The notes under the pieces are model-generated. The model had not been told where the DNA came from. It searched no databases and worked only from the letters and a program-made list of their open reading frames with translations. DNA of 64,000 bases from positions 1,595-65,594 of the forward strand of contig JBBTUN010000012.1 of assembly GCA_038063735.1 (NCBI GenBank), in the 5' to 3' direction. Below are positions 20,109-38,304 of the stretch, one piece after another. Position numbers and translations under genes: made by a program. This stretch comes from Patescibacteria group bacterium (GTDB lineage Bacteria; Patescibacteriota; Microgenomatia; Curtissbacterales; GWA2-41-24). Within the stretch, counting starts at the first letter, position 1. Each line of letters starts with the position of its first letter.

Positions 20109-20510
20109 CTATTCATGATGTCTTCCAATCAGATGTTCAGTCGCGTGTGCAGTTAAAAAAAACACCTCATCATCTACCATCACATCATTCCGGCTTGCAC
20201 TAAGCAAGACTTCCGGCCAACATAAAATAATGTCACCGAGTCTTAATGTCTCGTCAGGAGCATTTATAAAACCTTTCTTTGTTTCCTGGGTAACTTCCTC
20301 CAGTGGAAATGCCAACACTTCGTGGTTTTTGTTGTCTTTTAAATATAGAGTGGTTAAATTTCTCATTTTCCTTCTACCTACAACTGCAACAGAAACCTCA
20401 ACCTCACCCTGTAAGATCTTATTCTTAACCAGCGTTTCGATAATAGCTTTTCTAACAACTTTGCGGTTAACCGGATACCTCGTATCAGAAAGGATGTCAA
20501 CTTGAACCAT
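20109..20510 (-). CDS. ybeY: rRNA maturation endoribonuclease YbeY
   Basis: Conserved H-x3-H-x5-H metal site 'HATEHLIGRHH'. 133 aa. Confidence 0.65.
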   Translation of the reverse strand: MVQVDILSDTRYPVNRKVVRKAIIETLVKNKILQGEVEVSVAVVGRRKMRNLTTLYLKDNKNHEVLAFPLEEVTQETKKGFINAPDETLRLGDIILCWPEVLLSASRNDVMVDDEVFFLTAHATEHLIGRHHE

Positions 20511-20958
20511 TTATCTGCTTGAGCCTGGCAGTAACGATCTCGGAAACGACACCCCCATCCACTCGACCCTTTAGTTTTCCCATGATAACACCCATGACTT
20601 GCCCCACATTTGCGTTTGCTGGCAAACTCATACTGGCAATAACCTCATCAACAACCTTTCTAACTTCATCCTCACCCATTTGGGCCGGTAAATACTTGGA
20701 CAGTATTGCAAACTCCTCCTTCTCGCGACTAGCCAAATCATCGCGGCCGGCTTTATCGTAAGCATCAATTGATTCTTTTCTTTGTTTAGCACTTTTAACA
20801 ATTACACCGGTAACTTCTTCATCGGATAGTTCCCGACCAAGCTCAATTTGCTTGTTTTTTACCTCAGACATCAACAACCGAAGAGTAGAAGTCTTTACTC
20901 CCTCATTCGCCTTCATAGCACCAACCATGTCATTTTTTATATCATCAACAATACTCAT
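20497..20958 (-). CDS. GatB/YqeY domain protein
   Basis: Sequence typical of the YqeY family ('TSTLRLLMSEVKNKQIE...', 'ILSKYLP'). Confidence 0.65.
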   Translation of the reverse strand: MSIVDDIKNDMVGAMKANEGVKTSTLRLLMSEVKNKQIELGRELSDEEVTGVIVKSAKQRKESIDAYDKAGRDDLASREKEEFAILSKYLPAQMGEDEVRKVVDEVIASMSLPANANVGQVMGVIMGKLKGRVDGGVVSEIVTARLKQINGSS

Positions 20959-24128: not shown

Positions 24129-25280
24129 TCAGGAGGCAGCAATCGTTTTTTTAACCAAATCCAATGTTTTTGCCTGAAAAATAGAAACTGCCAGGTACCG
24201 TTCCATATCTACTTTTTGCTCCGGCGTTAAATCCGTCTGGTTCACACCTTTTCCGGCATTTTCTACTTCCTCACGGCTAACTTCAATTTTTGCACCTGTT
24301 CCGATTTCGTCCAAAATCAATGTCGCTTTAACATTCTTCTCGGCCTGTACTCTCCACTTTGCCCGCAGCGCATCAACAGTCGTATTTTCATCCCTCAAAA
24401 AATCCTCCAGTTTTTTACCACTCGATTCTACCTGTTGGTTCAAACGCACCATAATCCGGTTTATCTCGTCATCAACCATTATGTCCGGCACATCAACCTC
24501 GCCAATCTTAGCAAGCTCCTCAAAAATTTCTTCTTCAAATTTAGCCTCTACCTGGTCCGTAACCAGTGTCTCCAAATCTTTTCGAACCAATTCCTTCAGG
24601 TGCAAAAGATCCCTTGCCCCTATTGCTTTGGCAAATTCGTCGTCAATTTTCCCCTCAGACTTCTTCTCGTCAACCTTATTCTCATCTTTAAGAAAAATCT
24701 TCTCACCATGCGCATCATAAATAAACTTTCCTTGCCCTTCCGTAGCTTTAGCGAAGGAGGGTTTACCTGCTTCCTCTTCTTCATTTGATACATTTGATAC
24801 TTTTGACTCGTTCGAAACCTTTTGCTTAACCCATGCCTCATAAATATTTTTAATGGACTGTGTAACATCTTCTTCCGTTACCTCTTTGGCTTTAATTTTT
24901 TTAACCTTCATTGCTTTCCAGTCTCCAAGTTTTACTTTTGATCTTTCTGTTAAAGTTGCCACAAAAGAAAAAGGTGCACTCTTTGACAAAGAATCCACAG
25001 CAACCTTGGGTTTTGTAATGGGAATAATATTTTCTTTGTCAAATATATCGGAAAGATGTTGGGAAACCAAAAAATTAGCTGCCTCGTTTAAGATTTTGGT
25101 TGCCCCAAGTTTGTCCTCGACCATAGTAATCGGAACATTGCCGGGCCTAAAACCATCTATTTTGACATCTTTGCCAAGCTCAGTAAGCGCATGCTCGTAA
25201 GCCTTATCAAAATCCGCCTTCGAAACATCGACTTTAACCTCAACCTTCCCTTTTTCGCCACGGGTAATTGTGTGCTGCAT
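24129..25280 (-). CDS. tig: trigger factor
   Basis: N-terminal ribosome-binding domain 'GFRPGNVP' motif, about 383 aa. Contains a repeat-derived 'SKVSNVSNEEEE' insert. Confidence 0.85.
   Translation of the reverse strand: MQHTITRGEKGKVEVKVDVSKADFDKAYEHALTELGKDVKIDGFRPGNVPITMVEDKLGATKILNEAANFLVSQHLSDIFDKENIIPITKPKVAVDSLSKSAPFSFVATLTERSKVKLGDWKAMKVKKIKAKEVTEEDVTQSIKNIYEAWVKQKVSNESKVSNVSNEEEEAGKPSFAKATEGQGKFIYDAHGEKIFLKDENKVDEKKSEGKIDDEFAKAIGARDLLHLKELVRKDLETLVTDQVEAKFEEEIFEELAKIGEVDVPDIMVDDEINRIMVRLNQQVESSGKKLEDFLRDENTTVDALRAKWRVQAEKNVKATLILDEIGTGAKIEVSREEVENAGKGVNQTDLTPEQKVDMERYLAVSIFQAKTLDLVKKTIAAS
24781..24815 (-). repeat. family 1 copy, in frame in tig
   Basis: 'tttgatacatttgatacttttgactc'. 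Encodes SKVSNVSNEE. Confidence 0.6.
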
Positions 25281-29104: not shown

Positions 29105-29563
29105 TTAACTCCCAAGTTCAAACCTAACAAAACGTTTGATAACAATATTCTCCCCAACCTTTGCAATTGTTTCCTTGACAAGCTGCTCAACGTTTTTGCC
29201 AGAATCTCTAATGTATACCTGCTTTAAAAGCTCGCCAACATCTTTCGGGTTCATTGCACTAATCTGCATGGCAACTTCGTGTGAAAGATTTTTAAATTCA
29301 TCTGTTTTGGCAACAAAATCCGTCTCGCAGTTTATTTCCAAAATTACCCCAACCCGTCCGTTCCCGTGAATATACGTGTCAACCAGTCCTGCCTTAACTT
29401 CCCTGTCGGATTTGGTAGCAGCCTTTTCTATTCCCCAGCTTTTAACAAGTTCCTCCGCTCTTTTAAGATCCCCTTTTGCCTCCTCAAGCGCACGTCTGGA
29501 GTCCGCAATCCCAGCTCCGGTTTTTTCTCTTAATTTTTTAATGTCTTCAACACGTGCGTTCAT
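29105..29563 (-). CDS. tsf: elongation factor Ts (short form)
   Basis: UBA-like N-terminus 'IKKLREKTGAGIADSRRALEEAKGD' and 'VGVILEINCETDFVAK' core. 152 aa. Confidence 0.85.
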   Translation of the reverse strand: MNARVEDIKKLREKTGAGIADSRRALEEAKGDLKRAEELVKSWGIEKAATKSDREVKAGLVDTYIHGNGRVGVILEINCETDFVAKTDEFKNLSHEVAMQISAMNPKDVGELLKQVYIRDSGKNVEQLVKETIAKVGENIVIKRFVRFELGS

Positions 29564-29570
29564 GTGAATT

Positions 29571-30509
29571 TTAAATATTTGTTTTAGAAACAGGCGGTGT
29601 TACTTTTTTGACTTCTTCAACTATTTCCGTCACCTTTTGCTCATTCGTCCCCTTTGGTCCCTCTGCAGCCCTTGACTCATTTGCTTGCCCTGAGCCCGAG
29701 CGAAGGGATACTTTTGATACCTCTTCCCCGCCTGTCACCTTTCCTTTAGCCAGTTCTTCCTTTGCCTTTTCTTTTGCCTGCTCCCCGGCAAGGGCAATCT
29801 TTTGTTGCGCGCTCTTTTTATCAAACGCCTCTTTTCCAACTCGATAAGCGTCAGCTATCGCGTTTGTCACAATCTCGATAGCCTTGATTGCATCATCATT
29901 GCCGGGTACTGGATATGTAATCAAAGAAAGATCGGCATTTGTGTCACAAATTGCAATGGATGGAACTCCCCGCTTAACAGCCTCGCGGCAGGCATTTTCT
30001 TCCCTCTTAACATCAATGACAAAAAGCGCATCGGGAAGCTTGTCCATATTCTCGACTCCACCATAAAAGCGGGTGAGCTTTGCAATATCCCGATCTATCA
30101 AAAGAAGTTCTTTTTTGGTCCTATCGCTAAATTCTCCGGATTCCTTTTTTGTCCTTAAATCTTTAAGCTTTCTAATGTTTTTCGTGGTCTGCTCAAAATT
30201 CGTGAGCAAGCCCCCTATCCAGCGCTCTGCAATGTACATTGCGCCGCTTTTGGTAGCAGCATCTACAACAATACTTCTTGCCTGTTTTTTAGAACCCAAA
30301 AAGATAATCGTTCCGCCGTTTGCCCCGACTTGTTTAACAAATTCACACGCTTCCTCTAACTTTTTAACAGTGTGCGCCAGATCAATTACATGGACTCCAT
30401 CCCGTGCGCCAAAAATAAACTGGCCCATTTTTGGGTTCCACCTGCGAACCTGATGACCAAAATGGACACCAGCCTCCAAAAGTTCCTGCATCGTTGGTAA
30501 CTTACTCAT
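29571..30509 (-). CDS. rpsB: 30S ribosomal protein S2 with low-complexity C-terminal extension
   Basis: 'LLEAGVHFGHQVRRWNPKM' S2 signature. The C-terminal tail includes a repeat-encoded 'EEVSKVSLRSGSGQANES'. Confidence 0.9.
   Translation of the reverse strand: MSKLPTMQELLEAGVHFGHQVRRWNPKMGQFIFGARDGVHVIDLAHTVKKLEEACEFVKQVGANGGTIIFLGSKKQARSIVVDAATKSGAMYIAERWIGGLLTNFEQTTKNIRKLKDLRTKKESGEFSDRTKKELLLIDRDIAKLTRFYGGVENMDKLPDALFVIDVKREENACREAVKRGVPSIAICDTNADLSLITYPVPGNDDAIKAIEIVTNAIADAYRVGKEAFDKKSAQQKIALAGEQAKEKAKEELAKGKVTGGEEVSKVSLRSGSGQANESRAAEGPKGTNEQKVTEIVEEVKKVTPPVSKTNI
29672..29722 (-). repeat. family 1 copy with palindromic core, in frame in the rpsB tail
   Basis: 'ttgcttgccctgagcccgagcgaagggatacttttgatacc'. 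Encodes EEVSKVSLRSGSGQANES. Confidence 0.7.
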
Positions 30510-30714
30510 TTTTTATACAAAACCGGACATTAGAAATTGGAAATTTGAAATTAAAAATTTCTTAATGCCTCCTTTAAACCTCCGCCAGGAATATGTGGTC
30601 AAGGAGACGTGCTCCTAGCGTGCGTTATCTCGGGAGAGATTATCACAAAATAGTGGAAAATAGCAACTAGCTGCGTCGCTTAGGTGTTTTTTGCGTATGG
30701 ATTAAGAACAAGCT

Positions 30715-31017
30715 TTAACTTCTTTCTTTACCGTAACACGTCCCGCCTTCGTCACCCATCATAATTTCTGGATCCGGACGGACAGAATCAGGCAGAGGTT
30801 TGGGCAACTGCGACAACATGGCTCTATCCAGCACTATCACCGGAGCCCCATCCATTCCCCTGGTTTTCTTAATAAGGTGTCCCTGTATTCTCTTCGCCTC
30901 TTGAGAGGAGACTGTATCGTTGTGCAGCCCGCCCATGTCCTTATCCGGAGCTATGTCTGACTGCGGTCTATGTCTCGGTCCTTTTAAACTTCTCATGCCA
31001 ATAAAAAAAGCCACCAA
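30715..31017 (-). CDS. questionable ORF inside a GC-rich intergenic island (may be non-coding)
   Basis: 100-aa ORF with no motifs. Local GC is visibly higher than the surrounding AT-rich DNA. Confidence 0.15.
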   Translation of the reverse strand: MVAFFIGMRSLKGPRHRPQSDIAPDKDMGGLHNDTVSSQEAKRIQGHLIKKTRGMDGAPVIVLDRAMLSQLPKPLPDSVRPDPEIMMGDEGGTCYGKERS

Positions 31018-31074
31018 ACTCCGGGGCCAACAAAAGACCAGTCTAACATGCGACAGAAAAAACTGTCAATGTCA

Positions 31075-32775
31075 TCACTTCCTTCTAATAGAACCTTTTG
31101 CAGCTCCTATTTTTCTGTCTATCCTTTTTTCGCTTTCTCTTCTTGCCAAATCATAAGATTTATAATCAACAAACTTAAGCGCAAAAACTAAGCTCGGGTG
31201 GACTTTCTTTACCGCCTCAACTTTTAAATGCTCAACATGTCGGTAGTCCGGATGCCCTTGCGGTCCGGTCCTAAGCTCCGCCTCCCACGCCAGTTCCCGC
31301 AAATTTTCCCACTGGTACCAACGCATTCTATTACCCATCATTACTACGTACTGCGCTTGATCCGGATATTTTTTTGCGATTTTTTTATAAAACTTGTCAA
31401 TTTTATTTGCTGCATCAACATATGGTTTATCAAGCTTTGCCCAAACTAAATCCGGCGGAACATCAAACCCCAACTCTGTTGTAAACCGTTGCCTCTCCTG
31501 CGTCAGCATCCTGTGCCTGTGCAAATCGCGGTAAGCACCAAAGTTTGCAATTATGTCGAATTTATAATAGGTATTTTCAAAAGCGCGCACCAACCGGTGC
31601 TGCCTAACCTGCCGCTTGCCAACAACCTTTTTGATAATTAAAAGTTTTTCCCGCGCAGTTAGCTTTTCAACCTGCTCCTTTATCTGGGAAAACGAAACCG
31701 TCGCGTATTTATATAAAAGGCTCGCCACAATTCTATCTTCGGCATCACTATCCCACTCCACAAGTTCCACATCCTGGGTCTTTGATACATTTGATACCTT
31801 TGATACTTTTGATACCAGTCCCTCTAACGCCTTTTCTGTTTTAGAAACATACTTTTGGTAAATTTTCCCCCGAGGGCTGGTTGCCCTCTCCACCATCGAT
31901 GGGATAACCTGCATCAGTTCCTTTTGGGCCGCTTTTCCAAGTTCCCTGATTTCATAAATAGGAGATGCCAAACATTTGGTTATTACATATTCAAACGCCT
32001 GTCCCACACCAAAAAAGCCAACATTCGTTAAAGTTCCAGCCGGCAAATATGCGCGAAGCACGTCATAGGCTTTAGCGTTTATCGTTTCCCTGTATGCCCT
32101 ATCCGTTTGGTCTTTTCCCTGGACAAACTTTTTTCGGAGTATTTTAGAGAGTGGTTCAAGCGACTGTGAATAACGGGAAAAGAGCATATTCATAAGGCGC
32201 TTATACTCCGCACCATAAGAAGATTTAACAAGATCCGGATCCATAAAACATTGCCACCAGCCGCCAATTTTTGTATTAAAAGCAACATATCGCGTCGATT
32301 TCTCCAAGGGGGCAAAACCAATCCGAAAATCCTCCAAAGTTTTGGTTGCAATCTGCGAAACGCCTTCTAAAAATAAATGCGCACCGGCCATTTGCGCAAT
32401 CGAATCATCGCCATATGCAGCCAACCATCTGGCGAAAAAATCGCGCGCGCGCCTGCTGTTTACAACTGCCTCCCATCCTCCATGGCTATGCAGATAATCA
32501 ACAAAAGAGGTCAGCTCCGTCTTCATCACTTCGGCCTCCCTGATTGATTTCTTTTCCGCACCTTCCAAATTGGGTTCCAAAATCGGCTTTATATACTCGT
32601 CATAAAATAATCGCCTGACACCTTTTGTCGATCTGGAATATCGGGACGCAAGCGCCCCCAAAATTTCACTTGGCAAATACTTTGCAGCAAAAACATTCCT
32701 GTCCAAATTTGTAAAAAAGGGGGAAATGTACCAAGCCTCTTCCTTCGTAAATTTTTCAGCTTGAGAACTAATCAT
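31075..32775 (-). CDS. thyX: FAD-dependent thymidylate synthase ThyX (long, about 566 aa)
   Basis: ThyX 'RHR' flavin/dUMP motif 'YRDLHRHRMLTQERQ' and an N-terminal 'ALASRYSRS'-like segment. Double-length relative to canonical ThyX. Contains an in-frame 'LVSKVSKVSNVSKTQ' repeat insert. Confidence 0.7.
   Translation of the reverse strand: MISSQAEKFTKEEAWYISPFFTNLDRNVFAAKYLPSEILGALASRYSRSTKGVRRLFYDEYIKPILEPNLEGAEKKSIREAEVMKTELTSFVDYLHSHGGWEAVVNSRRARDFFARWLAAYGDDSIAQMAGAHLFLEGVSQIATKTLEDFRIGFAPLEKSTRYVAFNTKIGGWWQCFMDPDLVKSSYGAEYKRLMNMLFSRYSQSLEPLSKILRKKFVQGKDQTDRAYRETINAKAYDVLRAYLPAGTLTNVGFFGVGQAFEYVITKCLASPIYEIRELGKAAQKELMQVIPSMVERATSPRGKIYQKYVSKTEKALEGLVSKVSKVSNVSKTQDVELVEWDSDAEDRIVASLLYKYATVSFSQIKEQVEKLTAREKLLIIKKVVGKRQVRQHRLVRAFENTYYKFDIIANFGAYRDLHRHRMLTQERQRFTTELGFDVPPDLVWAKLDKPYVDAANKIDKFYKKIAKKYPDQAQYVVMMGNRMRWYQWENLRELAWEAELRTGPQGHPDYRHVEHLKVEAVKKVHPSLVFALKFVDYKSYDLARRESEKRIDRKIGAAKGSIRRK
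31779..31816 (-). repeat. family 1 copy (3.5 tandem 9-mers), in frame in thyX
   Basis: 'tttgatacatttgatacctttgatacttttgatacc'. Encodes LVSKVSKVSNVSK. Confidence 0.7.
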
Positions 32776-33439
32776 CTAAGCTCATATTCCCGTCACAGAT
32801 TTCTTTCTTCTTCAAAACTTCCAAAACCTCTTTCGCGATTTCACCTTTTGTTTTCGTCCCATCCAAAACGTAAAAAGAGAATTCTTTTGCTTGTTTCAAG
32901 TAATTGTCCCGAACTTTCTCTAAAAAACTTTGCCTCTCAAAAAGTTCTTTTGAACCCCTCGAGCTTTCCATACGCTTCATCGCAACAGAAACAGGGGTAT
33001 CAATTAAAAATGTTGCAGATGGCATCGGAAAATTTTTACCAAGCTCCCGCAGCCACTTACCATCCAAATTCAATTCACCATATGCCAAAGTCGAGAAAAA
33101 GTACCTGTCGGAAATAACAGTTTTCCCTGCGCGGGTAGAAGGCAAAATCAATTTATCCAGATGGTCTGCCCTGTCCGCGCTATACATAAGCTGCAAAGTT
33201 TCCCAAGAAAACTTCAGTTCATGCTTAAGCGCGCGCCTTATTAACTGACCAACTGGGCCATCCGTCGGCTCACAAGTCTTTATAACTTTTTTGCCTTTTG
33301 ATTTTAAGTAATTAAAAAGAAGACCTGTCTGCGTAGTAGAACCCGCTCCATCAATCCCTTCAAAAACAATAAGCGCAGCTTTTCTGCGAATAAATTTACC
33401 GCTCGAATCCTTAGCGGTGTGCGGTTTACTTTTTGCCAT
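32768..33439 (-). CDS. tmk: thymidylate kinase
   Basis: P-loop 'IVFEGIDGAGSTTQ' and DR(Y/F) motif 'SDRYFFS'. Confidence 0.85.
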   Translation of the reverse strand: MAKSKPHTAKDSSGKFIRRKAALIVFEGIDGAGSTTQTGLLFNYLKSKGKKVIKTCEPTDGPVGQLIRRALKHELKFSWETLQLMYSADRADHLDKLILPSTRAGKTVISDRYFFSTLAYGELNLDGKWLRELGKNFPMPSATFLIDTPVSVAMKRMESSRGSKELFERQSFLEKVRDNYLKQAKEFSFYVLDGTKTKGEIAKEVLEVLKKKEICDGNMSLDD

Positions 33440-34844
33440 TTGTTGCCTTGTCTATTTTAGAAGCAACAGCAAGGCGTGATCCAGAATATCTGTCAGATCT
33501 CGAACCTTCATACTTCATTTTTACCGGAGCAGCTAATTTTTCAAAAGTAAACGCGCATATTGGCATACCACAATACAATATTGCTGGCTTTGGCCCTAAG
33601 TTCCCGAGCTCCAAAACAGGCGCCCCGTTCCAGCCCGGATCAAACCTTGCAGCCGTCGAATGCACTAAAATTCCAAGCCGGGCAAGCGAACTTTTCCCCT
33701 CAAGCCTGCCCAAAATGTCCGGAGCCAATTTCAAAACTTCAGAAGTCGAAGCAATCGCAAACGCACCCGGTTCCAAAATAAACGGATCGCCGTTGGTAAG
33801 ATTGATTTCTTCCATCGCATCCTCTGGTAAACCACGCCTTGTGTCTATAAACCGATAGGCACCGGACCTAAACAGTTTAATATTCCCACCCAAATGAAAA
33901 TCGATAGAAACCTGGTCGATATTATCTTTCCAGTTGGCGGGCAGCGGCGAAATTTTGATATCGCCTTTCTCTACCGCTTCTTCGATTAACCAGTCCGGCA
34001 ATATACCTGTCATATTTTTACTATTTTCTTGTTGCTTATTCGCAGAAAAGCTCTGCTTATTCGTAGAAAAGCTCTGCTTATCTCTTGTCTCTTGTTGCTT
34101 CTTGCTTATTGCTTGTCTCTTATTCACCATATGGTCATAAACAATCTGGCTCCATGTCTCCATTTTTTTGAAATGGCGACCCAGTTCATCTACGGTCATC
34201 ATTGTACCCGATTTATGCTCGTCTCGGACATTAATTTCACTGCTATCCCCAGACAACATTATTACAAGTCCTACATGCACCAACCCAACATCATTAGCGT
34301 CGTGGTTTAAAATCCCCAAAAACTTAGCCGTATATTTTCCCTTATAATCTATCTCTTCTTCAAACTCCCGCTTTGCCCATTCCATCACTTCATCACCTTT
34401 GATACCTTTGATACTCTTGATACCTTTGACGTCTTTTAGATTTATATGTCCCCCAACACCAATAGAATACATATTAGCCAAGCGTTTATCCGTATGCGTT
34501 CCTTTTCTCTGCATCGCTAAAATTTTCCCACCTGCCTCAAAAATCAAATAAGGAATAACCTGTTTCCACTTGGGGTCACTTTCCACCTCGCCACGTGCCA
34601 TAAACTTATGGCTTTTTGTGATTACTTTTAAATACTTAGGAAGATTTTCAGAGCGTATCCCATTCCAAATCTCGCCGTCAAAAAGTTCCGTCCGCGAAAC
34701 AACCATCACCCGTTCGGCTTCCTTGCCCACCAAAACTTTCTTGACATCCATAGCTTTAGCGACGGATGTAGTGACGGCGGGTTTACCCTGAAGAACTTTC
34801 TTTTGAGATTTTTTCGGCATCAGAATTTTCGGGGCAGAGGTCAA
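33426..34844 (-). CDS. dcd: fusion protein: N-terminal NUDIX hydrolase domain plus C-terminal dCTP deaminase (Dcd/dUTPase-fold) domain
   Basis: Nudix box 'GGHINLKD...EWAKREFEEEIDY', interrupted by a repeat-encoded 'VKGIKSIKGIKGD' insert. K/Q-rich linker. C-terminal 'ILPDWLIEEAVEKGDIKISPL...EPGAFAIASTSEVLKL...GWNGAPVLELGNLGPKPA' is a typical dCTP deaminase. Confidence 0.7.
   Translation of the reverse strand: MTSAPKILMPKKSQKKVLQGKPAVTTSVAKAMDVKKVLVGKEAERVMVVSRTELFDGEIWNGIRSENLPKYLKVITKSHKFMARGEVESDPKWKQVIPYLIFEAGGKILAMQRKGTHTDKRLANMYSIGVGGHINLKDVKGIKSIKGIKGDEVMEWAKREFEEEIDYKGKYTAKFLGILNHDANDVGLVHVGLVIMLSGDSSEINVRDEHKSGTMMTVDELGRHFKKMETWSQIVYDHMVNKRQAISKKQQETRDKQSFSTNKQSFSANKQQENSKNMTGILPDWLIEEAVEKGDIKISPLPANWKDNIDQVSIDFHLGGNIKLFRSGAYRFIDTRRGLPEDAMEEINLTNGDPFILEPGAFAIASTSEVLKLAPDILGRLEGKSSLARLGILVHSTAARFDPGWNGAPVLELGNLGPKPAILYCGMPICAFTFEKLAAPVKMKYEGSRSDRYSGSRLAVASKIDKATNGKK
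34024..34125 (-). repeat. repeat family 2 (purine-rich GCAACAAGARACAAG / tandem 23-mer), in frame in the NUDIX-Dcd linker
   Basis: 'gcttattcgcagaaaagctctgcttattcgtagaaaagctctgcttatctcttgtctcttgttgcttcttgcttattgcttgtctc'. Encodes KQQETRDKQSFSTNKQSFSANKQ. Confidence 0.55.
34396..34432 (-). repeat. family 1 copy, in frame in the Nudix box of the NUDIX-Dcd fusion
   Basis: 'cctttgatacctttgatactcttgatacctttgac'. Read in another frame, it encodes VKGIKSIKGIKGD. Confidence 0.7.
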
Positions 34845-34886: not shown

Positions 34887-35291
34887 TTAGAGTAGTCCCG
34901 AAACACGAATTAAACCTTCACCTATTTCCAACTTACTTACAGAACCGTACGAGTCCTCGCAAATTTGTTCCCCGCGTCTTAACAATTCTTCACCCACACT
35001 AGTAAAATCTCCTCTATCTATATCATCCAAGATTTGTTCCTGCTTCTGTCTTAATTCTCTACAATGTCGTGCAACATTTTCCTTACCTGCCGAGTCATAA
35101 CACTCACCAATCATCAACAGCACATTTGTCCATCCCTCTAACCTGTATAACACATACATACGCACTAAACCGTGCAATTCTTCCCTTGGTGGACTTATCT
35201 TTATAGCCATTTCCCTTTCTAGCGCAACTGTCATTACGCTTTTTCTAGAAATAGCATCATCCAATTGGAGCAGCCTCAAACGATCTGTCAT
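34887..35291 (-). CDS. hypothetical protein
   Basis: 134 aa, no recognisable motifs. Confidence 0.25.
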   Translation of the reverse strand: MTDRLRLLQLDDAISRKSVMTVALEREMAIKISPPREELHGLVRMYVLYRLEGWTNVLLMIGECYDSAGKENVARHCRELRQKQEQILDDIDRGDFTSVGEELLRRGEQICEDSYGSVSKLEIGEGLIRVSGLL

Positions 35292-35300
35292 CTCGCGATT

Positions 35301-37448
35301 TTACTCCACTTTTTTATCAGATTGCAATTCTTCTTTTCTTTCAATGTTTGATACCTTTGATTTATCCTGAGATTTATCGAAGGACTCGTTTGCTTGCCCT
35401 GAATCTTTTTGAAGGGATACTTTTGATACTTCTCCCTCTGGCTTTGTCCAACTTGCAAAAGTACAATTAGGATAATTGGCGCATCCCCAAAATGGCCTTC
35501 CCCGCTTTGTCCGCTTCATAACAACCTGCCCACCATCCACGGGACAAACAAGCCCGGTCTCTTCGTTCAAAGCCTTCGTATTTTTACAATCAGGAAATCC
35601 GCTGCAAGCCAAAAACTTTCCGTACTTTCCATAGCGTACAACCATAGGCTTGCCACATCTTTCGCAAACATCACCCGTTTCTTCAACTTCTACCTTCATT
35701 TTCTCTGCCTCTTCGGCGACTCTATCTACCTTTTCCTCAAACGGTTTCCAAAACTTCTCCATTAGCTGCGGCATCTCGAGTTTTCCAAGTGCAATATCGT
35801 CAAGTCCGTTTTCCATATCTGCTGTAAACGAGTAATCGATAATATCGCCAAAATATTTTTCCAAAAACTCTATCGTTGTCTTGCCAATAGGCGTTGGCCC
35901 AATTTTCTTGCCTTCCAGCCTTTCGATATAAAGCCTGTCGTACAAAGTAGAAATTGTCGGCGCGTAAGTAGAAGGCCTGCCGATTCCATGCTTTTCCAAA
36001 TCGCGAATAAGAGTTGCCTCTCCGTATCTTGCCGGCGGCTCTGTAAACTTTTGCTGCGGATTAATATTCTTAAAGTCCAGCGGTTCGTCCTTTGCCAAGT
36101 CTGGCAAAACCTGCTCGGTAATCGGCGCTTTGGCATAAACCCTGTACCATCCGTCAAACTTTATTTTCTGACCATTCACCCGAAGCAAATAACTTTTTGC
36201 TTTTTGCTTTTTGCCTTTTGCTTCTACATCTACCGCCGTTTCGTCAACAACTGCTTCTGCCATCTGGCAAACAACCATCCTTTTCCAGATCAACTCATAC
36301 AATTTCCTTTCATCCTGACTTATCACTTGCTTGCCCTGAGCTTGATCGAAGGGTAACTTGTCACTTGTCACTTCTATACTCGTTGGTCTTATCGCTTCAT
36401 GTGCTTCCTGCGCAAGTTTGGATTTTATTTTGTATGCCCGTGACTTTGGCGGTAAATAATTTTTTCCATACTTTGCTTCTATAAATTTACGCACGGCGCT
36501 AACCGCTGCCGGCGCCAAATTAACAGAATCGGTTCTCATATAAGTAATCAAACCGTTTTCGTAGAGGCTTTGGGCAACACTCATCGTTCGCTTTGGCACA
36601 AAACCCAAAACATTTGCGGCCCGCTGTTGCAGCGTAGAGGTAGTAAAAGGCGGATTAGGATATTTTTTAACCTCTTTAGATTCAACGGAGGCAACAGTGT
36701 ACTTTGCAGTTTTTAAATCTGCGACAACTTCATCCGCCTGCTTTTGATTTTTAACACTCGCCTTTTTCCCGTCAACTTTCTGAAGTGTCACCGTAAAGAT
36801 TTCACCCTCCAACACCTTTGATACCTCTACCTCAACCACCCAATATTCCTCGCTCTTAAACCCCTCTATCTCCCGTTCGCGCTCAACAACCAACCGCAAA
36901 GCAACAGATTGCACCCTACCAGCGCTGAGTCTACTTTTAACTTTTTTCCAAAGTAGTGGCGAAAGTTTATAACCGACAAGCCTGTCCAGCACCCTTCTTG
37001 CTTGCTGCGCCTCAACTAAATTCTGGTCGATACTTCGCGGATGCCCAAAAGCAGCAAGCACCGCATCTTTTGTAATTTCATGGAAAACTACCCGCTGCAC
37101 ATTTCGCTTAGATGCCGGAGTTTTAGATTTTGCGTCTATTACCTTTAAGAGATTCCAGGCTATTGCTTCGCCTTCGCGGTCAGGATCCGGTGCAAGGTAT
37201 AAATGACTAACACCTTCCGTCGATTTAACCAGCTGGTTAACCATTTTTATTTTGTTTTTAGGAATTACGTATTTAGGTTTAAAACCATGATCCACATCTA
37301 CCCCAAACTCACCTTTGGGCAAATCCCGAACGTGTCCCATAGAAGCAATAATCTGGTAATCTTTCCCCAAAAACTGACTTAACGTACGAGCTTTGGTTGG
37401 GCTTTCTACTATTACAAGATTTTTTGACATAATTATTTTAGGTATCAA
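35301..37448 (-). CDS. topA: DNA topoisomerase I
   Basis: Toprim N-terminus 'LVIVESPTKARTLSQFLG...ASMGHVRDLP', active-site region 'ITYMRTDS', C-terminal C4 zinc ribbons. Carries at least three in-frame repeat inserts. Confidence 0.9.
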   Translation of the reverse strand: MIPKIIMSKNLVIVESPTKARTLSQFLGKDYQIIASMGHVRDLPKGEFGVDVDHGFKPKYVIPKNKIKMVNQLVKSTEGVSHLYLAPDPDREGEAIAWNLLKVIDAKSKTPASKRNVQRVVFHEITKDAVLAAFGHPRSIDQNLVEAQQARRVLDRLVGYKLSPLLWKKVKSRLSAGRVQSVALRLVVEREREIEGFKSEEYWVVEVEVSKVLEGEIFTVTLQKVDGKKASVKNQKQADEVVADLKTAKYTVASVESKEVKKYPNPPFTTSTLQQRAANVLGFVPKRTMSVAQSLYENGLITYMRTDSVNLAPAAVSAVRKFIEAKYGKNYLPPKSRAYKIKSKLAQEAHEAIRPTSIEVTSDKLPFDQAQGKQVISQDERKLYELIWKRMVVCQMAEAVVDETAVDVEAKGKKQKAKSYLLRVNGQKIKFDGWYRVYAKAPITEQVLPDLAKDEPLDFKNINPQQKFTEPPARYGEATLIRDLEKHGIGRPSTYAPTISTLYDRLYIERLEGKKIGPTPIGKTTIEFLEKYFGDIIDYSFTADMENGLDDIALGKLEMPQLMEKFWKPFEEKVDRVAEEAEKMKVEVEETGDVCERCGKPMVVRYGKYGKFLACSGFPDCKNTKALNEETGLVCPVDGGQVVMKRTKRGRPFWGCANYPNCTFASWTKPEGEVSKVSLQKDSGQANESFDKSQDKSKVSNIERKEELQSDKKVE
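35346..35430 (-). repeat. family 1 composite copy (9-mers plus two palindromic cores), in frame in the topA C-terminus
   Basis: 'tttgatacctttgatttatcctgagatttatcgaaggactcgtttgcttgccctgaatctttttgaagggatacttttgatac'. Encodes EVSKVSLQKDSGQANESFDKSQDKSKVS. Confidence 0.7.
36186..36228 (-). repeat. family-2-like A/G-rich tandem (GCAAAAA)n, in frame in topA
   Basis: 'ctttttgctttttgctttttgccttttgcttc'. Encodes EAKGKKQKAKS. Confidence 0.35.
36321..36372 (-). repeat. family 1 palindromic-core copy, in frame in topA
   Basis: 'cacttgcttgccctgagcttgatcgaagggtaacttgtcacttgtcac'. Confidence 0.6.
36812..36832 (-). repeat. family 1 short copy in topA
   Basis: 'cacctttgatacctctacc'. Encodes VEVSKVLEG. Confidence 0.4.
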
Positions 37449-37477
37449 AAGTCACAAAAGTATCATAAGTATCAAAT
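37441..37477 (+). repeat. family 1 copy, inverted orientation, intergenic between topA and the four-helix-bundle gene
   Basis: 'ggtatcaaaagtcacaaaagtatcataagtatcaaatg'. Confidence 0.6.
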
Positions 37478-37485
37478 GAAAACAA

Positions 37486-37842
37486 CTAGAAAGAGTTGGA
37501 ATACTTATTTAGAAGATACCCCACTTCCCCTTTCTTTAGGTCAAGAACTTTATACTCCCCCTGCAGAACAAAACCCAACTCTAGTGAAACCTCAAGGTCT
37601 GATTCTAATTCGAAAAGAGATCCAACTGCAATCTCCAAAAATCTTTTCTTATCAAGTTTTGACCTCCTGGAATAACCCTCAGCAATATTAGAAAGCACAG
37701 AAACTGCTGCTCTTCTCATCTGACTTTTCAGACCAAACTCTTCACTTTTTGGAAACTTTGTCGTCACATTGTAAACCATTACAACCAAGTCTTTAGCTCT
37801 TTGCCAAACAATAAGCTTCTGATAACCCTTCGGTTCACTCAT
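37486..37842 (-). CDS. four-helix-bundle protein (23S rRNA intervening-sequence protein / Avd-like family)
   Basis: 'LIVWQRAKDLVVMVYNVTTKFPKSEEFGLKSQMRRAAVSVLSNIAEGYSRRS...FLEIAVGSLFELESDLEVS' matches the four-helix-bundle family. Free-standing here and flanked by inverted repeat copies. Confidence 0.7.
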   Translation of the reverse strand: MSEPKGYQKLIVWQRAKDLVVMVYNVTTKFPKSEEFGLKSQMRRAAVSVLSNIAEGYSRRSKLDKKRFLEIAVGSLFELESDLEVSLELGFVLQGEYKVLDLKKGEVGYLLNKYSNSF

Positions 37843-37866: not shown

Positions 37867-37977
37867 GTTTGATACCTTTGATACTCTTGACCCCTTTTGT
37901 ACTTTTCTAACTTTTGTCCCTTGATATACAAACTCACTTTTGATACCTTTGATACGTTTGACGCCCTTGATACTTTC
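37867..37977 (-). repeat. family 1 long copy, intergenic between the four-helix-bundle gene and the csaA-like gene
   Basis: 'tttgatacctttgatactcttgacccc...cttttgatacctttgatacgtttgacgcccttgatac'. The reverse complement begins GGTATCAAAAGT, as does the left copy. Confidence 0.65.
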
Positions 37978-37983
37978 TTAAAT

Positions 37984-38304
37984 ATGGCCACCATTGACGA
38001 TTTCCAAAAATTGGCAATAAAAATCGGCACTATTCGCTCTGCGGAAAAAGTAGCAGGTTCCAGCAAACTCTTAAAGCTAGACATTGACCTTGGCCATGAA
38101 AAACGCCAAATCTTAGCTGGCATTGGTGAAAAGTACGACCCTAAAGATCTTAAAGGCAAACAAATCCCAATTTTGGCAAACCTGGATCCAAGAATGATGA
38201 TGGGCCTGGAATCAAACGGTATGATTTTGGCAGTCGACGTAAATGGCGAGCCGGTACTCTTGCACCCCGATGAAAAAATCGCCAACGGCACCCAAGTCAG
38301 ATAA
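37984..38304 (+). CDS. tRNA-binding protein (CsaA/Myf, EMAP-like domain)
   Basis: 'KIGTIRSAEKVAGSSKLLKLDIDLGHEKRQILAGIGEKYDPKDLKGKQIPILANLDPRMMMGLESNGMILA' is the classic CsaA/MetRS C-terminal-domain pattern. Start taken as the internal M 'MATIDD'; the upstream part of the ORF-track entry is repeat DNA. Confidence 0.7.
   Translation: MATIDDFQKLAIKIGTIRSAEKVAGSSKLLKLDIDLGHEKRQILAGIGEKYDPKDLKGKQIPILANLDPRMMMGLESNGMILAVDVNGEPVLLHPDEKIANGTQVR

What the first reader, a model, noticed from the sequence alone, without database searches (positions are those of the whole stretch)
31075..34844. thyX - tmk - NUDIX::dCTP-deaminase fusion: a compact dUMP/dTMP supply module with an unusual fusion
Three overlapping minus-strand genes encode a long-form ThyX (566 aa, about double the canonical length), thymidylate kinase, and a protein fusing an N-terminal Nudix hydrolase to a C-terminal dCTP deaminase. 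No dut gene is present here. The fusion suggests dCTP is converted to dUTP by the Dcd domain and then to dUMP by the Nudix domain, feeding ThyX. This is inference from domain content. The Nudix box itself is interrupted by a 13-residue repeat-encoded insert, which raises the question of whether the Nudix domain is still active.
Basis: partly seen in the sequence, partly recalled or inferred. Interest (0 to 1): 0.55.

Follow-up and report, generated by a model that had tools for sequence, protein, structure and literature searches.

The report
Nudix–dCTP deaminase fusion, thymidylate operon
A tiny-genome bacterium (Microgenomates/Curtissbacteria-like) has a tight three-gene operon for making thymidine nucleotides, and its first gene joins an uncharacterised Nudix hydrolase domain to dCTP deaminase; the fusion is real and conserved across the lineage and may replace the usual dUTPase, but that chemistry is untested.

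Summary
Three overlapping minus-strand genes encode a Nudix–dCTP deaminase fusion (33426-34820, 464 aa from its ATG), thymidylate kinase (32768-33439) and a 566-aa ThyX (31075-32775).

- **Not an artefact.** At least 120 full-length homologues (388-498 aa) exist on independent contigs, all Microgenomates. The order topA–fusion–tmk–thyX–rpsB–tsf–frr is conserved.
- **N-terminal domain.** It is a bona fide but divergent Nudix of the uncharacterised COG4112/TM1382 family. It matches PDB 3E57 at E=4e-20, and the AF2 model (pLDDT 92) gives TM 0.86 to 3E57. Relatives are otherwise almost always stand-alone ~200-aa proteins.
- **The insert.** It is a 12-aa (V/I)K(G/S)x4 tract, net +9 aa, in a disordered loop before the Nudix helix. 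GGH and REFEEE are intact in 120/120 homologues. This loop is an insertion hot spot, fed by a 9-bp repeat found in frame in at least seven neighbouring genes.
- **No dut.** No dUTPase is detectable in the 64-kb window or within ±10 kb in relatives.
- **Untested.** Whether the Nudix domain is the dUTP pyrophosphatase, or the Dcd domain is itself dUMP-forming, cannot be decided from sequence.
- **ThyX.** The long ThyX is the norm in this lineage, not a peculiarity.

This is a new variant of a known kind, of moderate interest.

The parts
31075..34820 (-). Three-gene operon: nudix::dcd, tmk, thyX (long). Coding regions overlap by 14 nt and 8 nt.
   Evidence: ORF coordinates. The same gene order, with overlaps, is found in L001-L006 from other Microgenomates.
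33426..34820 (-). Fusion gene: COG4112-type Nudix domain joined to dCTP deaminase. It is 464 aa from the ATG at 34820; the open frame continues upstream to a TTG at 34844.
   Evidence: P0001 is 464 aa at 100% identity. The A1 alignment shows all homologues starting at MPKK.
34716..34820 (-). Lys-rich N-terminal tail of variable length.
   Evidence: Alignment A1. Mean pairwise identity is 41%, with large length variation.
34110..34715 (-). COG4112/TM1382-like Nudix-fold domain (ORF aa 44-245).
   Evidence: PDB 3E57 at E=3.8e-20. AF2 pLDDT 92.2. Foldseek to 3E57 gives TMt 0.86. 4569 family representatives, mostly ~200 aa and stand-alone.
34344..34454 (-). Extended Nudix box: GGH-INLKD-[insert]-DEVMEWAK-REFEEE-IDY.
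   Evidence: GGH, R, E and EE are invariant across stand-alone and fused members (A2). GGH...RExxEE is present in 120/120 fusion homologues. The Nudix helix is residues 107-121 of the model.
34395..34430 (-). Repeat-encoded insert VKGIKSIKGIKG (four 9-bp units), in the loop before the Nudix helix.
   Evidence: TRF finds period 9 with 3.9 copies. Sequence read directly. pLDDT is below 50 at model residues 102-105. The loop is 25 aa against a 16-aa baseline in 41/120 homologues.
34011..34109 (-). Variable inter-domain linker. It contains a 21-bp tandem repeat (34033-34081) encoding KQSFS(T/A)N twice.
   Evidence: TRF. Linker mean pairwise identity is 13%. Alignment A1.
33429..34010 (-). dCTP deaminase domain (ORF aa 279-472).
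   Evidence: PF22769 at 125 bits and TIGR02274 at 152 bits. E. coli Dcd 1XS1 at 8.8e-32 and M. tuberculosis Dcd:dut 2QXX at 1.2e-26. E. coli positions S111, R115, H121, D128 and E138 are conserved. Mean identity among homologues is 82%.
32768..33439 (-). tmk, thymidylate kinase (223 aa).
   Evidence: PF02223 at 147.7 bits. TIGR00041 at 151 bits against a cut-off of 83.
31075..32775 (-). Long-form ThyX (566 aa). The N-terminal half is degenerate and the C-terminal half is Thy1-like.
   Evidence: Pfam Thy1 at 112.8 bits in 2 stretches, best at aa 338-528. TIGR02170 matches aa 125-296 but below cut-off. 6165 homologues, with the top 120 at 537-618 aa.
31483..31518 (-). ThyX-motif region of the C-terminal half: RHRMLTQERQRF (aa 420-431).
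   Evidence: R420, H421, R422, T425, Q426, E427, R428, Q429 and R430 are invariant in A3. Read from the translation.
31772..31832 (-). A tract of the same 9-bp repeat family, between the two ThyX halves, read as VSKVSKVSNVSK.

Best explanation
This is a lineage-wide (Microgenomates) housekeeping operon for making dTTP from dCTP.

**Proposed pathway.**
1. The C-terminal Dcd domain of the first protein deaminates dCTP to dUTP.
2. The covalently attached N-terminal COG4112-type Nudix domain hydrolyses dUTP to dUMP and PPi. In this role it takes the place of a classical dUTPase and keeps free dUTP low.
3. The long-form ThyX methylates dUMP to dTMP.
4. Tmk phosphorylates dTMP to dTDP.

**Shown.**
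- The genes, domains and fusion exist, and the fusion and its synteny are conserved.
- The deaminase and Nudix catalytic motifs are intact.
- The insert sits in a tolerant, disordered loop.
- No dut is detectable locally.

**Inferred.**
- The substrate of the Nudix domain.
- That the Dcd domain releases dUTP rather than dUMP.
- That the genome lacks dut elsewhere.

**Origin of the insert.** The 12-aa insert is a by-product of a 9-bp repeat that expands in frame in many genes of this genome. It is most likely functionally neutral.
For: **The fusion is real and conserved.**
- 199 hits were found, and the best 120 are all full length (388-498 aa) with at least 89% query coverage.
- Mean pairwise identity is 62% for the Nudix domain, 82% for the Dcd domain and 13% for the linker. 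This pattern indicates purifying selection on both domains joined by a free linker.
- Synteny topA-fusion-tmk-thyX-rpsB-tsf-frr, with overlapping genes, is seen on three independent long contigs.

**The Nudix domain looks catalytically competent.**
- It matches 3E57 at E=3.8e-20.
- The AF2 model has pLDDT 92.2, and Foldseek gives TMt 0.86 to 3E57.
- The next structural neighbours include the pyrimidine (d)NTP pyrophosphohydrolases NudI/YfaO, a putative CTP pyrophosphohydrolase and MutT2.
- The Nudix-helix residues R-E..E-E and the GGH motif are invariant in the family and retained here.

**The Dcd domain looks active.** The deamination residues S111, R115 and E138 (E. coli numbering) are conserved.

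**No alternative dUTPase or defence role is visible.**
- No dUTPase, MazG or dCMP deaminase is detectable in the window or within ±10 kb in relatives.
- The fusion does not match the PADLOC defence models.

**Precedent (established knowledge).**
- Dcd products must pass through dUMP to reach ThyX.
- Bifunctional Dcd:Dut enzymes show the selective value of coupling the two steps.
- E. coli NudI shows that a Nudix enzyme can act as a dUTP/dCTP/dTTP pyrophosphatase.
Against: - No member of COG4112/TM1382 has a known substrate.
- Stand-alone members are very widespread (4569 cluster representatives). They sit in unrelated neighbourhoods, so the ancestral role is probably not dUTP hydrolysis.
- The Dcd domain shares the 'RLEGKSSL...HSTA' signature with the bifunctional M. 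tuberculosis Dcd:dut. It could therefore form dUMP by itself, leaving the Nudix domain another job.
- One relative (L005/L006) carries an additional canonical Nudix gene between tmk and thyX. That gene could be the pathway's pyrophosphatase in that lineage.
- The structural resemblance to NudI and similar enzymes is only generic Nudix-fold level (TM ~0.5, 10-15% identity).
- The rest of the genome was not available for a dut search.
Confidence: 0.45

Rival explanations
1. The Dcd domain is itself a bifunctional, dUMP-forming dCTP deaminase:dUTPase, like the M. jannaschii and M. tuberculosis enzymes. The Nudix domain then does something else. It could sanitise another (deoxy)nucleotide, or it could sense or regulate the pool that controls Dcd.
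For: - The Dcd domain scores almost as well against M. tuberculosis Dcd:dut (2QXX, 1.2e-26) as against E. coli Dcd (8.8e-32).
- It shares RLEGKSSL, HSTA and LEL-N with the M. tuberculosis enzyme, where E. coli has WLDGRSSL, HVTA and LEFYN.
- COG4112 proteins are mostly stand-alone, in genomes and contexts unrelated to dTTP synthesis.
Against: - The best PDB match is the monofunctional E. coli enzyme.
- The domain keeps R126 and W131 as in E. coli, where M. tuberculosis has F and F.
- No validated sequence rule for mono- versus bifunctionality could be retrieved.
- A permanent fusion held under strong purifying selection inside the dTTP operon is more simply explained by consecutive steps.
Confidence: 0.27
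2. The Nudix domain is a non-catalytic structural or oligomerisation module. Alternatively, it has been inactivated in this particular genome by the repeat insert.
For: - Pfam NUDIX is below threshold (17.2 against 21.1).
- The Nudix-box spacing is non-canonical: GX5D-X20-RE here, X11 in the shortest fused homologues, against X7 in the classical box.
- The insert lies within the box.
Against: - GGH, R159, E160, E163 and E164 are invariant in 28/28 aligned and 120/120 scanned homologues, and also in stand-alone members.
- About two thirds of fused homologues carry inserts of 1-22 aa at the same point, and some stand-alone members carry more than 50 aa there. The loop therefore tolerates insertions.
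- In the model the insert is a low-confidence surface loop, with the flanking helix and strands at pLDDT above 90.
- The insert is in frame and the surrounding sequence shows no decay.
Confidence: 0.08
3. The fusion is an anti-phage dCTP-depleting defence enzyme of the kind described for defence-island dCTP deaminases with N-terminal accessory domains.
For: The general architecture fits: an accessory N-terminal domain plus a C-terminal dCTP deaminase.
Against: - There is no PADLOC hit for the fusion.
- It sits in a conserved housekeeping operon with tmk and thyX, between topA and rpsB-tsf-frr, in every relative examined.
- The Dcd domain is near-invariant across the lineage, at 82% mean identity. 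That is unlike fast-evolving defence genes.
Confidence: 0.02
4. The fusion is an assembly, frameshift or gene-calling artefact joining two separate genes.
For: None was found, apart from the repetitive linker, which could in principle hide an indel.
Against: - The frame is continuous through the linker in the window.
- It is also continuous in at least 120 homologues from independent assemblies and sources.
- The only short look-alike is truncated by a contig end.
Confidence: 0.01

Closest known systems
Bifunctional dCTP deaminase:dUTPase (M. jannaschii DCD-DUT, PDB 1OGH; M. tuberculosis Dcd:dut, PDB 2QXX)
   Same: One polypeptide is proposed to carry dCTP all the way to dUMP, coupling the two steps and limiting free dUTP. 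The Dcd fold and catalytic residues are shared.
   Different: In those enzymes both reactions occur in a single dUTPase-superfamily active site. Here a second, unrelated catalytic domain (Nudix) is fused N-terminally. Whether the Dcd domain here has dUTPase activity of its own is unknown.
E. coli two-enzyme route: monofunctional Dcd (PDB 1XS1) followed by Dut
   Same: It is the best solved-structure match for the C-terminal domain (8.8e-32). S111, R115, H121, R126, D128, W131 and E138 are conserved. The pathway logic is the same: dCTP to dUTP to dUMP.
   Different: No trimeric Dut was detected in the window or in the flanks of relatives. The hydrolase partner is proposed to be a fused Nudix domain instead.
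TM1382 of Thermotoga maritima (PDB 3E57), COG4112 'predicted NUDIX family phosphoesterase'
   Same: The N-terminal domain is a clear homologue over its whole length (E=3.8e-20; TMt 0.86). It carries the family-invariant KQIIPY, GGH, RE..EE, H..G and ETWS motifs.
   Different: TM1382-like proteins are stand-alone, ~200 aa, and of unknown function. Here the domain is fused to Dcd, has clade-specific invariant motifs (for example RDEHKSG) and carries a repeat insert in the Nudix-box loop.
E. coli/Salmonella/Klebsiella NudI (YfaO), pyrimidine dNTP pyrophosphohydrolase (PDB 3OGA, 6DT3)
   Same: Both have the Nudix fold. NudI ranks among the structural neighbours after TM1382 and YfcD. From established knowledge, NudI provides precedent for a Nudix enzyme that hydrolyses dUTP, dTTP and dCTP.
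   Different: Sequence identity is only 10-12% and TM is about 0.5. There is no specific relationship beyond the superfamily. NudI lacks the N-terminal extension of COG4112.
Anti-phage dCTP deaminase defence proteins (PADLOC models)
   Same: Both have a dCTP deaminase domain with an N-terminal accessory domain.
   Different: There is no PADLOC match. The genomic context is housekeeping. The accessory domain in those systems is kinase-like (from memory), not Nudix.
Canonical ~220-250-aa homotetrameric ThyX (TIGR02170; e.g. T. maritima, from memory)
   Same: The Pfam Thy1 domain is present and the RHR motif is kept in the C-terminal half.
   Different: The protein is double length, with a degenerate N-terminal half that lacks RHR but keeps E-K-S-T-R-Y. 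It scores below the TIGR02170 cut-off (29.9 against 87.9). Neither phmmer nor a family profile finds any solved ThyX. Double-length ThyX proteins are recalled from Chlamydia, but this was not verified here.

Membership tests
dCTP deaminase (Dcd; TIGR02274 / PF22769) | Score above the curated HMM cut-offs | tested here: met
   TIGR02274 scores 152.3 bits against a cut-off of 92.8. PF22769 scores 125.4 bits against 27.
dCTP deaminase (Dcd; TIGR02274 / PF22769) | Metal-independent deamination triad Ser111 / Arg115 / Glu138 (E. coli numbering; residue roles from established literature, recalled) | tested here: met
   The alignment to 1XS1 reads EGKSSLARLG...VLELGN. S, R and E are all conserved and invariant in 28 homologues.
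dCTP deaminase (Dcd; TIGR02274 / PF22769) | Homotrimer with dCTP-to-dUTP activity, inhibited by dTTP | not testable with these tools
   This needs biochemistry.
Bifunctional dCTP deaminase:dUTPase (dUMP-forming) | Product is dUMP + PPi, formed in the same active site | not testable with these tools
   No validated sequence discriminator could be retrieved.
Bifunctional dCTP deaminase:dUTPase (dUMP-forming) | Closer in sequence to characterised bifunctional enzymes than to monofunctional ones | tested here: inconclusive
   E. coli scores 113.8 bits, M. tuberculosis 97 bits and M. jannaschii 44 bits. The active-site loop HSTA and the RLEGK segment resemble M. tuberculosis, while R126 and W131 resemble E. 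coli.
Nudix hydrolase superfamily | Nudix alpha/beta/alpha fold | tested here: met
   The AF2 model has pLDDT 92.2 and pTM 0.88. There are 206 Foldseek PDB matches at E<=1e-3. The listed best 50 are Nudix-fold proteins: Nudix hydrolases, plus the C-terminal domain of MutY and isopentenyl-diphosphate isomerase.
Nudix hydrolase superfamily | Nudix box GX5EX7REUXEEXGU | tested here: inconclusive
   REFEEE (REUXEE) is present and invariant. Upstream, G-X5-D replaces G-X5-E. The spacer to RE is 20 aa here, 11 aa in the shortest fused homologues and about 8 aa in the shortest stand-alone members, against the canonical 7. The terminal G is D.
Nudix hydrolase superfamily | Pfam PF00293 gathering score | tested here: inconclusive
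   This protein scores 17.2 bits, below the 21.1 cut-off. Family members P0123, P0203 and P0269 pass at 21.4-23.3, while others fail.
COG4112 / TM1382-like 'predicted NUDIX family phosphoesterase' | Full-length homology to TM1382 and to stand-alone members | tested here: met
   3E57 matches at E=3.8e-20 over residues 34-228 against 14-200. There are 2014 representatives at E<=1e-10. IMG names the relatives 'predicted NUDIX family phosphoesterase'.
COG4112 / TM1382-like 'predicted NUDIX family phosphoesterase' | Family-invariant residues (Q-IPY, RL, G-GGH, RE..EE, V..H.G, W) | tested here: met
   All 17 invariant columns of alignment A2 (39 sequences) are kept in the window protein.
Thymidylate kinase (Tmk) | Equivalog HMM above cut-off | tested here: met
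   TIGR00041 scores 151 bits against a cut-off of 83.25.
Flavin-dependent thymidylate synthase ThyX | Pfam Thy1 domain above the gathering score | tested here: met
   112.8 bits against 24.8, in two stretches.
Flavin-dependent thymidylate synthase ThyX | TIGR02170 equivalog cut-off | tested here: not met
   29.9 bits against 87.9. No solved ThyX is found by phmmer or by a family profile. The protein is therefore filed as a divergent long-form Thy1-domain protein, and its ThyX function is inferred.
Flavin-dependent thymidylate synthase ThyX | ThyX motif RHRxxSxxxxSxRY (motif recalled from the literature) | tested here: inconclusive
   The C-terminal half has RHRMLTQERQRF, with RHR present and Ser replaced by Thr. 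The N-terminal half lacks RHR but keeps invariant E158-K-S-T-R-Y163.
Anti-phage dCTP deaminase defence system | Match to PADLOC defence models | tested here: not met
   There is no PADLOC hit for the fusion at E<=0.01.
Stand-alone dUTPase (Dut) encoded nearby | A dUTPase, dimeric dUTPase or MazG gene in the window | tested here: not met
   phmmer with Dut and with the Dcd domain against all 503 ORFs finds nothing real. Pfam on 30 ORFs, 25 of them under 200 aa, finds none. Eleven of the 30 had no Pfam hit at all. The rest of the genome was not available.

The most novel reading that the evidence does not exclude
The COG4112/TM1382-type Nudix domain is the 'missing' dUTP pyrophosphatase of Microgenomates, a non-orthologous displacement of Dut. 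Fused to Dcd, it would make a two-active-site dCTP-to-dUMP enzyme, analogous to Dcd:Dut but assembled from two superfamilies. This would also give the first functional handle, pyrimidine dNTP pyrophosphohydrolase, on a large uncharacterised Nudix family with more than 4,500 sequence clusters and one orphan crystal structure.
Probability: 0.3. Interest if true: 0.6.

Novelty: new variant of a known kind. Interest (0 to 1): 0.42.

Why it matters
**A possible function for an orphan family.** Fusions of enzymes for consecutive steps are among the most reliable in-silico clues to function. This one links an orphan Nudix family (COG4112, PDB 3E57, thousands of members) to dUTP/dCTP metabolism.

**A possible answer to a known gap.** Many prokaryotes lack any recognisable dUTPase ('Life without dUTPase', PMC5122711). 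This operon suggests how a reduced-genome lineage could make dUMP and keep uracil out of DNA without a classical Dut.

**An annotation gap.** Public records name these proteins simply 'dCTP deaminase' and miss half of the protein.

**A natural experiment.** The insert story shows that short in-frame repeats colonise the surface loops of essential enzymes in these genomes, here without touching catalytic residues.

Tried and rejected
- **Frameshift or artefact: rejected.**
- **Weak Dut-like hit: spurious.** ORF 20497-20958 (phmmer E=0.016) is YqeY.
- **Defence-system reading: rejected.** There is no PADLOC match and the context is housekeeping.
- **Gene neighbourhood of stand-alone COG4112 genes: uninformative.** Three loci (L007-L009) were examined for a link to dcd, dut or thyX and showed none.
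- **Sequence rule for mono- versus bifunctional Dcd: not found.**
  - Literature searches gave no usable determinants.
  - The key JBC 2005 paper is not held.
  - Residue comparison is mixed.
- **Structure of the long ThyX: failed.** AF2 on a 20-sequence alignment gave pLDDT 48.5, so no fold search was run.
- **Sequence approaches to the long ThyX: nothing found.**
  - phmmer and a family profile found no solved ThyX.
  - BLASTP between the two halves showed no similarity.
- **GTDB scan with the single protein: little gained.** It returned only 4 loci because the peptide seeds were too specific, so no taxonomic census came from it.
- **Promoter and terminator scan of 30.4-35.4 kb: not above shuffled expectation**.
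- **Rfam and tRNA scans: nothing near the operon**.
- **Literature on the fusion or TM1382: nothing relevant**.

Full report
**1. What is in the sequence**

The three minus-strand ORFs exist exactly as described:
- 33426-34844 (472 aa from the first possible start, a TTG)
- 32768-33439 (223 aa)
- 31075-32775 (566 aa)

The stop/start overlaps are 14 nt and 8 nt. Every homologue of the first protein starts at 'MPKK...', and the database copy of this very protein (P0001) is 464 aa. The real start is therefore the ATG at 34820.

The neighbours are housekeeping genes. topA lies upstream; rpsB, a short tsf, frr, an M50 protease, a class II aminoacyl-tRNA synthetase and trigger factor lie downstream (by synteny). 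The closest named relatives are Candidatus Curtissbacteria and Blackburnbacteria, so the window comes from a Microgenomates (Patescibacteria/CPR) genome.

**2. Domain content**

*Tmk.* It is unambiguous: TIGR00041 at 151 bits against a cut-off of 83.

*C-terminal 190 residues of the first protein.* They form a dCTP deaminase.
- TIGR02274 scores 152 bits against a cut-off of 92.8, and PF22769 scores 125 bits.
- The best solved relatives are E. coli Dcd (1XS1, 8.8e-32), then M. tuberculosis Dcd:dut (2QXX, 1.2e-26), then M. jannaschii DCD-DUT (1OGH, 2e-10).
- In the alignment, E. coli positions S111, R115, H121, T123, A124, R126, D128, W131 and E138 are all conserved.

*N-terminal domain.* Pfam NUDIX reaches only 17.2 bits against a gathering score of 21.1.
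- phmmer finds PDB 3E57 (Thermotoga maritima TM1382, deposited as a 'putative Nudix hydrolase') at E=3.8e-20 over essentially the whole domain.
- An AF2 model built on 39 fused and stand-alone homologues is confident, with pLDDT 92.2 and pTM 0.88.
- Foldseek against the PDB returns 3E57 first (E 8.6e-17, TM 0.86 normalised to the target). It is followed by YfcD, NudI/YfaO, a putative CTP pyrophosphohydrolase, ADP-ribose pyrophosphatases, DR0079 and MutT2, giving 206 matches at E<=1e-3.

**3. The Nudix family and the fusion event**

An exhaustive search of 1.84 billion cluster representatives with the N-terminal domain finds 4569 relatives at E<=1e-3 and 2014 at E<=1e-10. The top 150 are almost all stand-alone proteins of 190-230 aa. 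IMG calls them 'predicted NUDIX family phosphoesterase', which is COG4112. Members hover around the Pfam NUDIX threshold.

Only one full-length representative of the Dcd fusion appears (P0122, 430 aa). There is also one unrelated fusion to transketolase (P0157). The fusion to Dcd is thus a single, lineage-specific event inside a large orphan family.

It is not an artefact.
- The full-length protein retrieves 199 hits, and the best 120 are all 388-498 aa with at least 89% coverage. They come from NCBI, JGI, ENA and Logan assemblies.
- The only short look-alike (P0121) is cut by the end of an 874-bp contig just as the Dcd domain begins.

Across 28 aligned homologues, mean pairwise identity is:

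| Region | Mean pairwise identity |
|---|---|
| Nudix domain | 62% |
| Dcd domain | 82% |
| Linker | 13% |

This is the signature of two constrained domains joined by a free tether. In the window the linker contains a 21-bp tandem repeat.

**4. The insert**

The DNA reads GTC AAA GGT / ATC AAG AGT / ATC AAA GGT / ATC AAA GGT, which encodes VKG IKS IKG IKG at 34395-34430.

It sits between the family-invariant GGH-x4-D and the invariant RE-x2-EE helix. In the model it is the only low-confidence segment (pLDDT below 50 at residues 102-105). The Nudix helix (residues 107-121) and the flanking strands score above 90.

Among the 120 fused homologues, the GGH-to-RE distance behaves as follows:
- It is 16 aa in 41 of them.
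- It ranges up to 38 aa in the rest.
- The window has 25 aa, a net gain of 9.
- The extra residues are always K/G/S/T/V/I tripeptide repeats.

All 120 keep GGH...RExxEE. Some stand-alone members carry 50-residue inserts at the same point. The shortest stand-alone members have a nearly canonical box, GX5D-X8-REUXEE.

The Nudix box is therefore stretched, not broken. The question about activity is answered as far as sequence can answer it: nothing catalytic is lost.

The insert belongs to a dispersed 9-bp repeat (coding-strand unit GTATCAAAG). The repeat occurs in frame in dnaX, tig, rpsB, thyX, topA and a tRNA-binding-domain gene, mostly read as VSK. In the Nudix gene it is read in another frame as IKG.

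**5. Context in relatives**

On three independent long contigs (1.0 Mb, 448 kb and 195 kb) the order is conserved: topA – fusion – tmk – long thyX – (small ORFs) – rpsB – tsf – frr. The same overlapping starts are present.

There are two variations. One lineage adds a nucleoside 2-deoxyribosyltransferase after thyX (L001). Another inserts a canonical 183-aa Nudix gene between tmk and thyX (L005/L006).

No dUTPase, MazG or dCMP deaminase family is recorded within ±10 kb in any of them.

In the window itself:
- Pfam scans of 30 ORFs, 25 of them under 200 aa, find no dUTPase-type family.
- Eleven of the 30 have no Pfam hit at all, and the rest of the genome is unseen. 'No dut' is therefore a local statement only.

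**6. The long ThyX**

- Pfam Thy1 matches twice (112.8 bits, best stretch aa 338-528).
- TIGR02170 aligns to aa 125-296 but far below its cut-off.
- The C-terminal half keeps RHRMLTQERQRF.
- The N-terminal half lacks RHR but keeps an invariant E-K-S-T-R-Y.
- The two halves are not detectably similar to each other by BLASTP.
- Neither phmmer nor a family profile finds any solved ThyX.
- The AF2 model from a shallow alignment was unusable, at pLDDT 48.5.

The form is common. There are 6165 homologues at E<=1e-3, and the top 120 are all 537-618 aa, annotated 'FAD-dependent thymidylate synthase'.

The double length is thus the lineage norm, and is best read as a fused and diverged pseudo-dimer. 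That reading, and thymidylate synthase activity itself, are inferences from the Pfam match, the motif and the operon.

**7. Mechanism**

The operon most plausibly converts dCTP to dTDP. Four steps are needed: deamination, pyrophosphate removal, methylation and phosphorylation. Three are accounted for by Dcd, ThyX and Tmk.

The missing step, dUTP to dUMP, is normally done either by Dut or by the Dcd active site itself in bifunctional enzymes. A catalytically intact Nudix pyrophosphohydrolase domain is permanently fused to Dcd here, under purifying selection, with no dut in sight. It is the obvious candidate.

Coupling the two activities would also limit free dUTP, which is the same logic that explains Dcd:Dut. 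I put this at about 0.45.

The main rival (about 0.27) is that the Dcd domain is itself dUMP-forming and the Nudix domain has another job.
- The Dcd active-site loop (VHSTAA) and the RLEGKSSL segment resemble the bifunctional M. tuberculosis enzyme more than E. coli.
- R126 and W131 resemble E. coli instead.
- I could not retrieve a validated discriminator.

The other readings are less likely:
- A non-catalytic or insert-inactivated Nudix domain (about 0.08) is disfavoured by the motif conservation.
- A defence role (about 0.02) is disfavoured by PADLOC and by the context.
- An artefact is excluded.

**8. Novelty and verdict**

Each part belongs to a known family. The pathway logic is known, and these proteins already sit in public databases labelled 'dCTP deaminase'.

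I found no description of a Nudix–Dcd fusion, or of any function for TM1382/COG4112, in the searchable literature. [quoted passage not shown]

Its value is as a Rosetta-stone clue to an orphan Nudix family and to dUTP control in dut-less reduced genomes. Interest is moderate (0.42). It would rise to about 0.6 if the Nudix domain proves to be the lineage's dUTPase.

Noticed in passing
window 18913-18964, 24784-24826, 29720, 31772-31832, 34395-34430, 35347-35436, 36824, 37442-37476, 37868-37990: A 9-bp tandem repeat (coding-strand unit GTATCAAAG) is dispersed in frame through at least seven minus-strand housekeeping genes: dnaX, tig, rpsB, thyX, nudix::dcd, topA and a tRNA_bind gene. The 17-mer gives 15 matches at up to 3 mismatches, against 0.23 expected. 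It is mostly read as VSK(VSK)n, but as IKG in the Nudix loop and as YQR at the tRNA_bind C-terminus. Homologues in other Microgenomates carry similar tracts at the same Nudix loop.
   Followed up: partly
window 29674-29727 and 35383-35436 (weaker copy 36320-36373): A 54-nt element is shared at 81% identity between the C-terminal tails of rpsB (…EEVSKVSLRSGSGQANES…) and topA (…GEVSKVSLQKDSGQANES…). It looks like a small insertion that adds the same peptide to unrelated proteins.
   Followed up: partly
window 34887-35291 (-): A 134-aa ORF fills the gap between topA and the fusion gene. It has no Pfam, NCBIfam or PADLOC hit and no tblastn match in related loci, where topA and the fusion are only ~50 nt apart. 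It is either a strain-specific gene or a non-coding insertion.
   Followed up: partly
window 30510-31074: A 565-nt gap lies between thyX and rpsB, with 7/14-bp tandem repeats (30525-30560) and a 100-aa ORF (30715-31017). The ORF has no family hit and no match in relatives. There is no Rfam match. Relatives have small unannotated ORFs at this position.
   Followed up: partly
window 31075-32775 (-): The long ThyX is so divergent that neither phmmer nor a 20-sequence family profile finds any solved ThyX in the PDB. Its two halves show no pairwise similarity. The canonical ThyX motif looks divided between the halves: RHR in the C-terminal half and ExSxRY in the N-terminal half. AF2 with a shallow alignment failed (pLDDT 48.5).
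   Followed up: partly
L005/L006 11911-12462; L001/L002 13597-14037: The operon varies in relatives. One has an extra canonical Nudix gene (183 aa, PF00293) inserted between tmk and thyX. Another has a nucleoside 2-deoxyribosyltransferase gene directly after thyX.
   Followed up: no
proteins P0157, P0125, P0128: Other COG4112 architectures exist. One is an 848-aa fusion of the domain to a complete transketolase. Some stand-alone members have 50-55-residue inserts at exactly the same GGH-to-RE loop, and one of these is Cys-rich.
   Followed up: no
window 37486-37842 (-): A gene for a '23S rRNA-intervening sequence protein' (PF05635, 118 bits; bAvd-like four-helix bundle) lies just upstream of topA, far from any rRNA gene in this window.
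   Followed up: no
window 29105-29563 (-): EF-Ts is only 152 aa, about half the usual bacterial length. The same short form (152-153 aa) is seen in all related loci.
   Followed up: no
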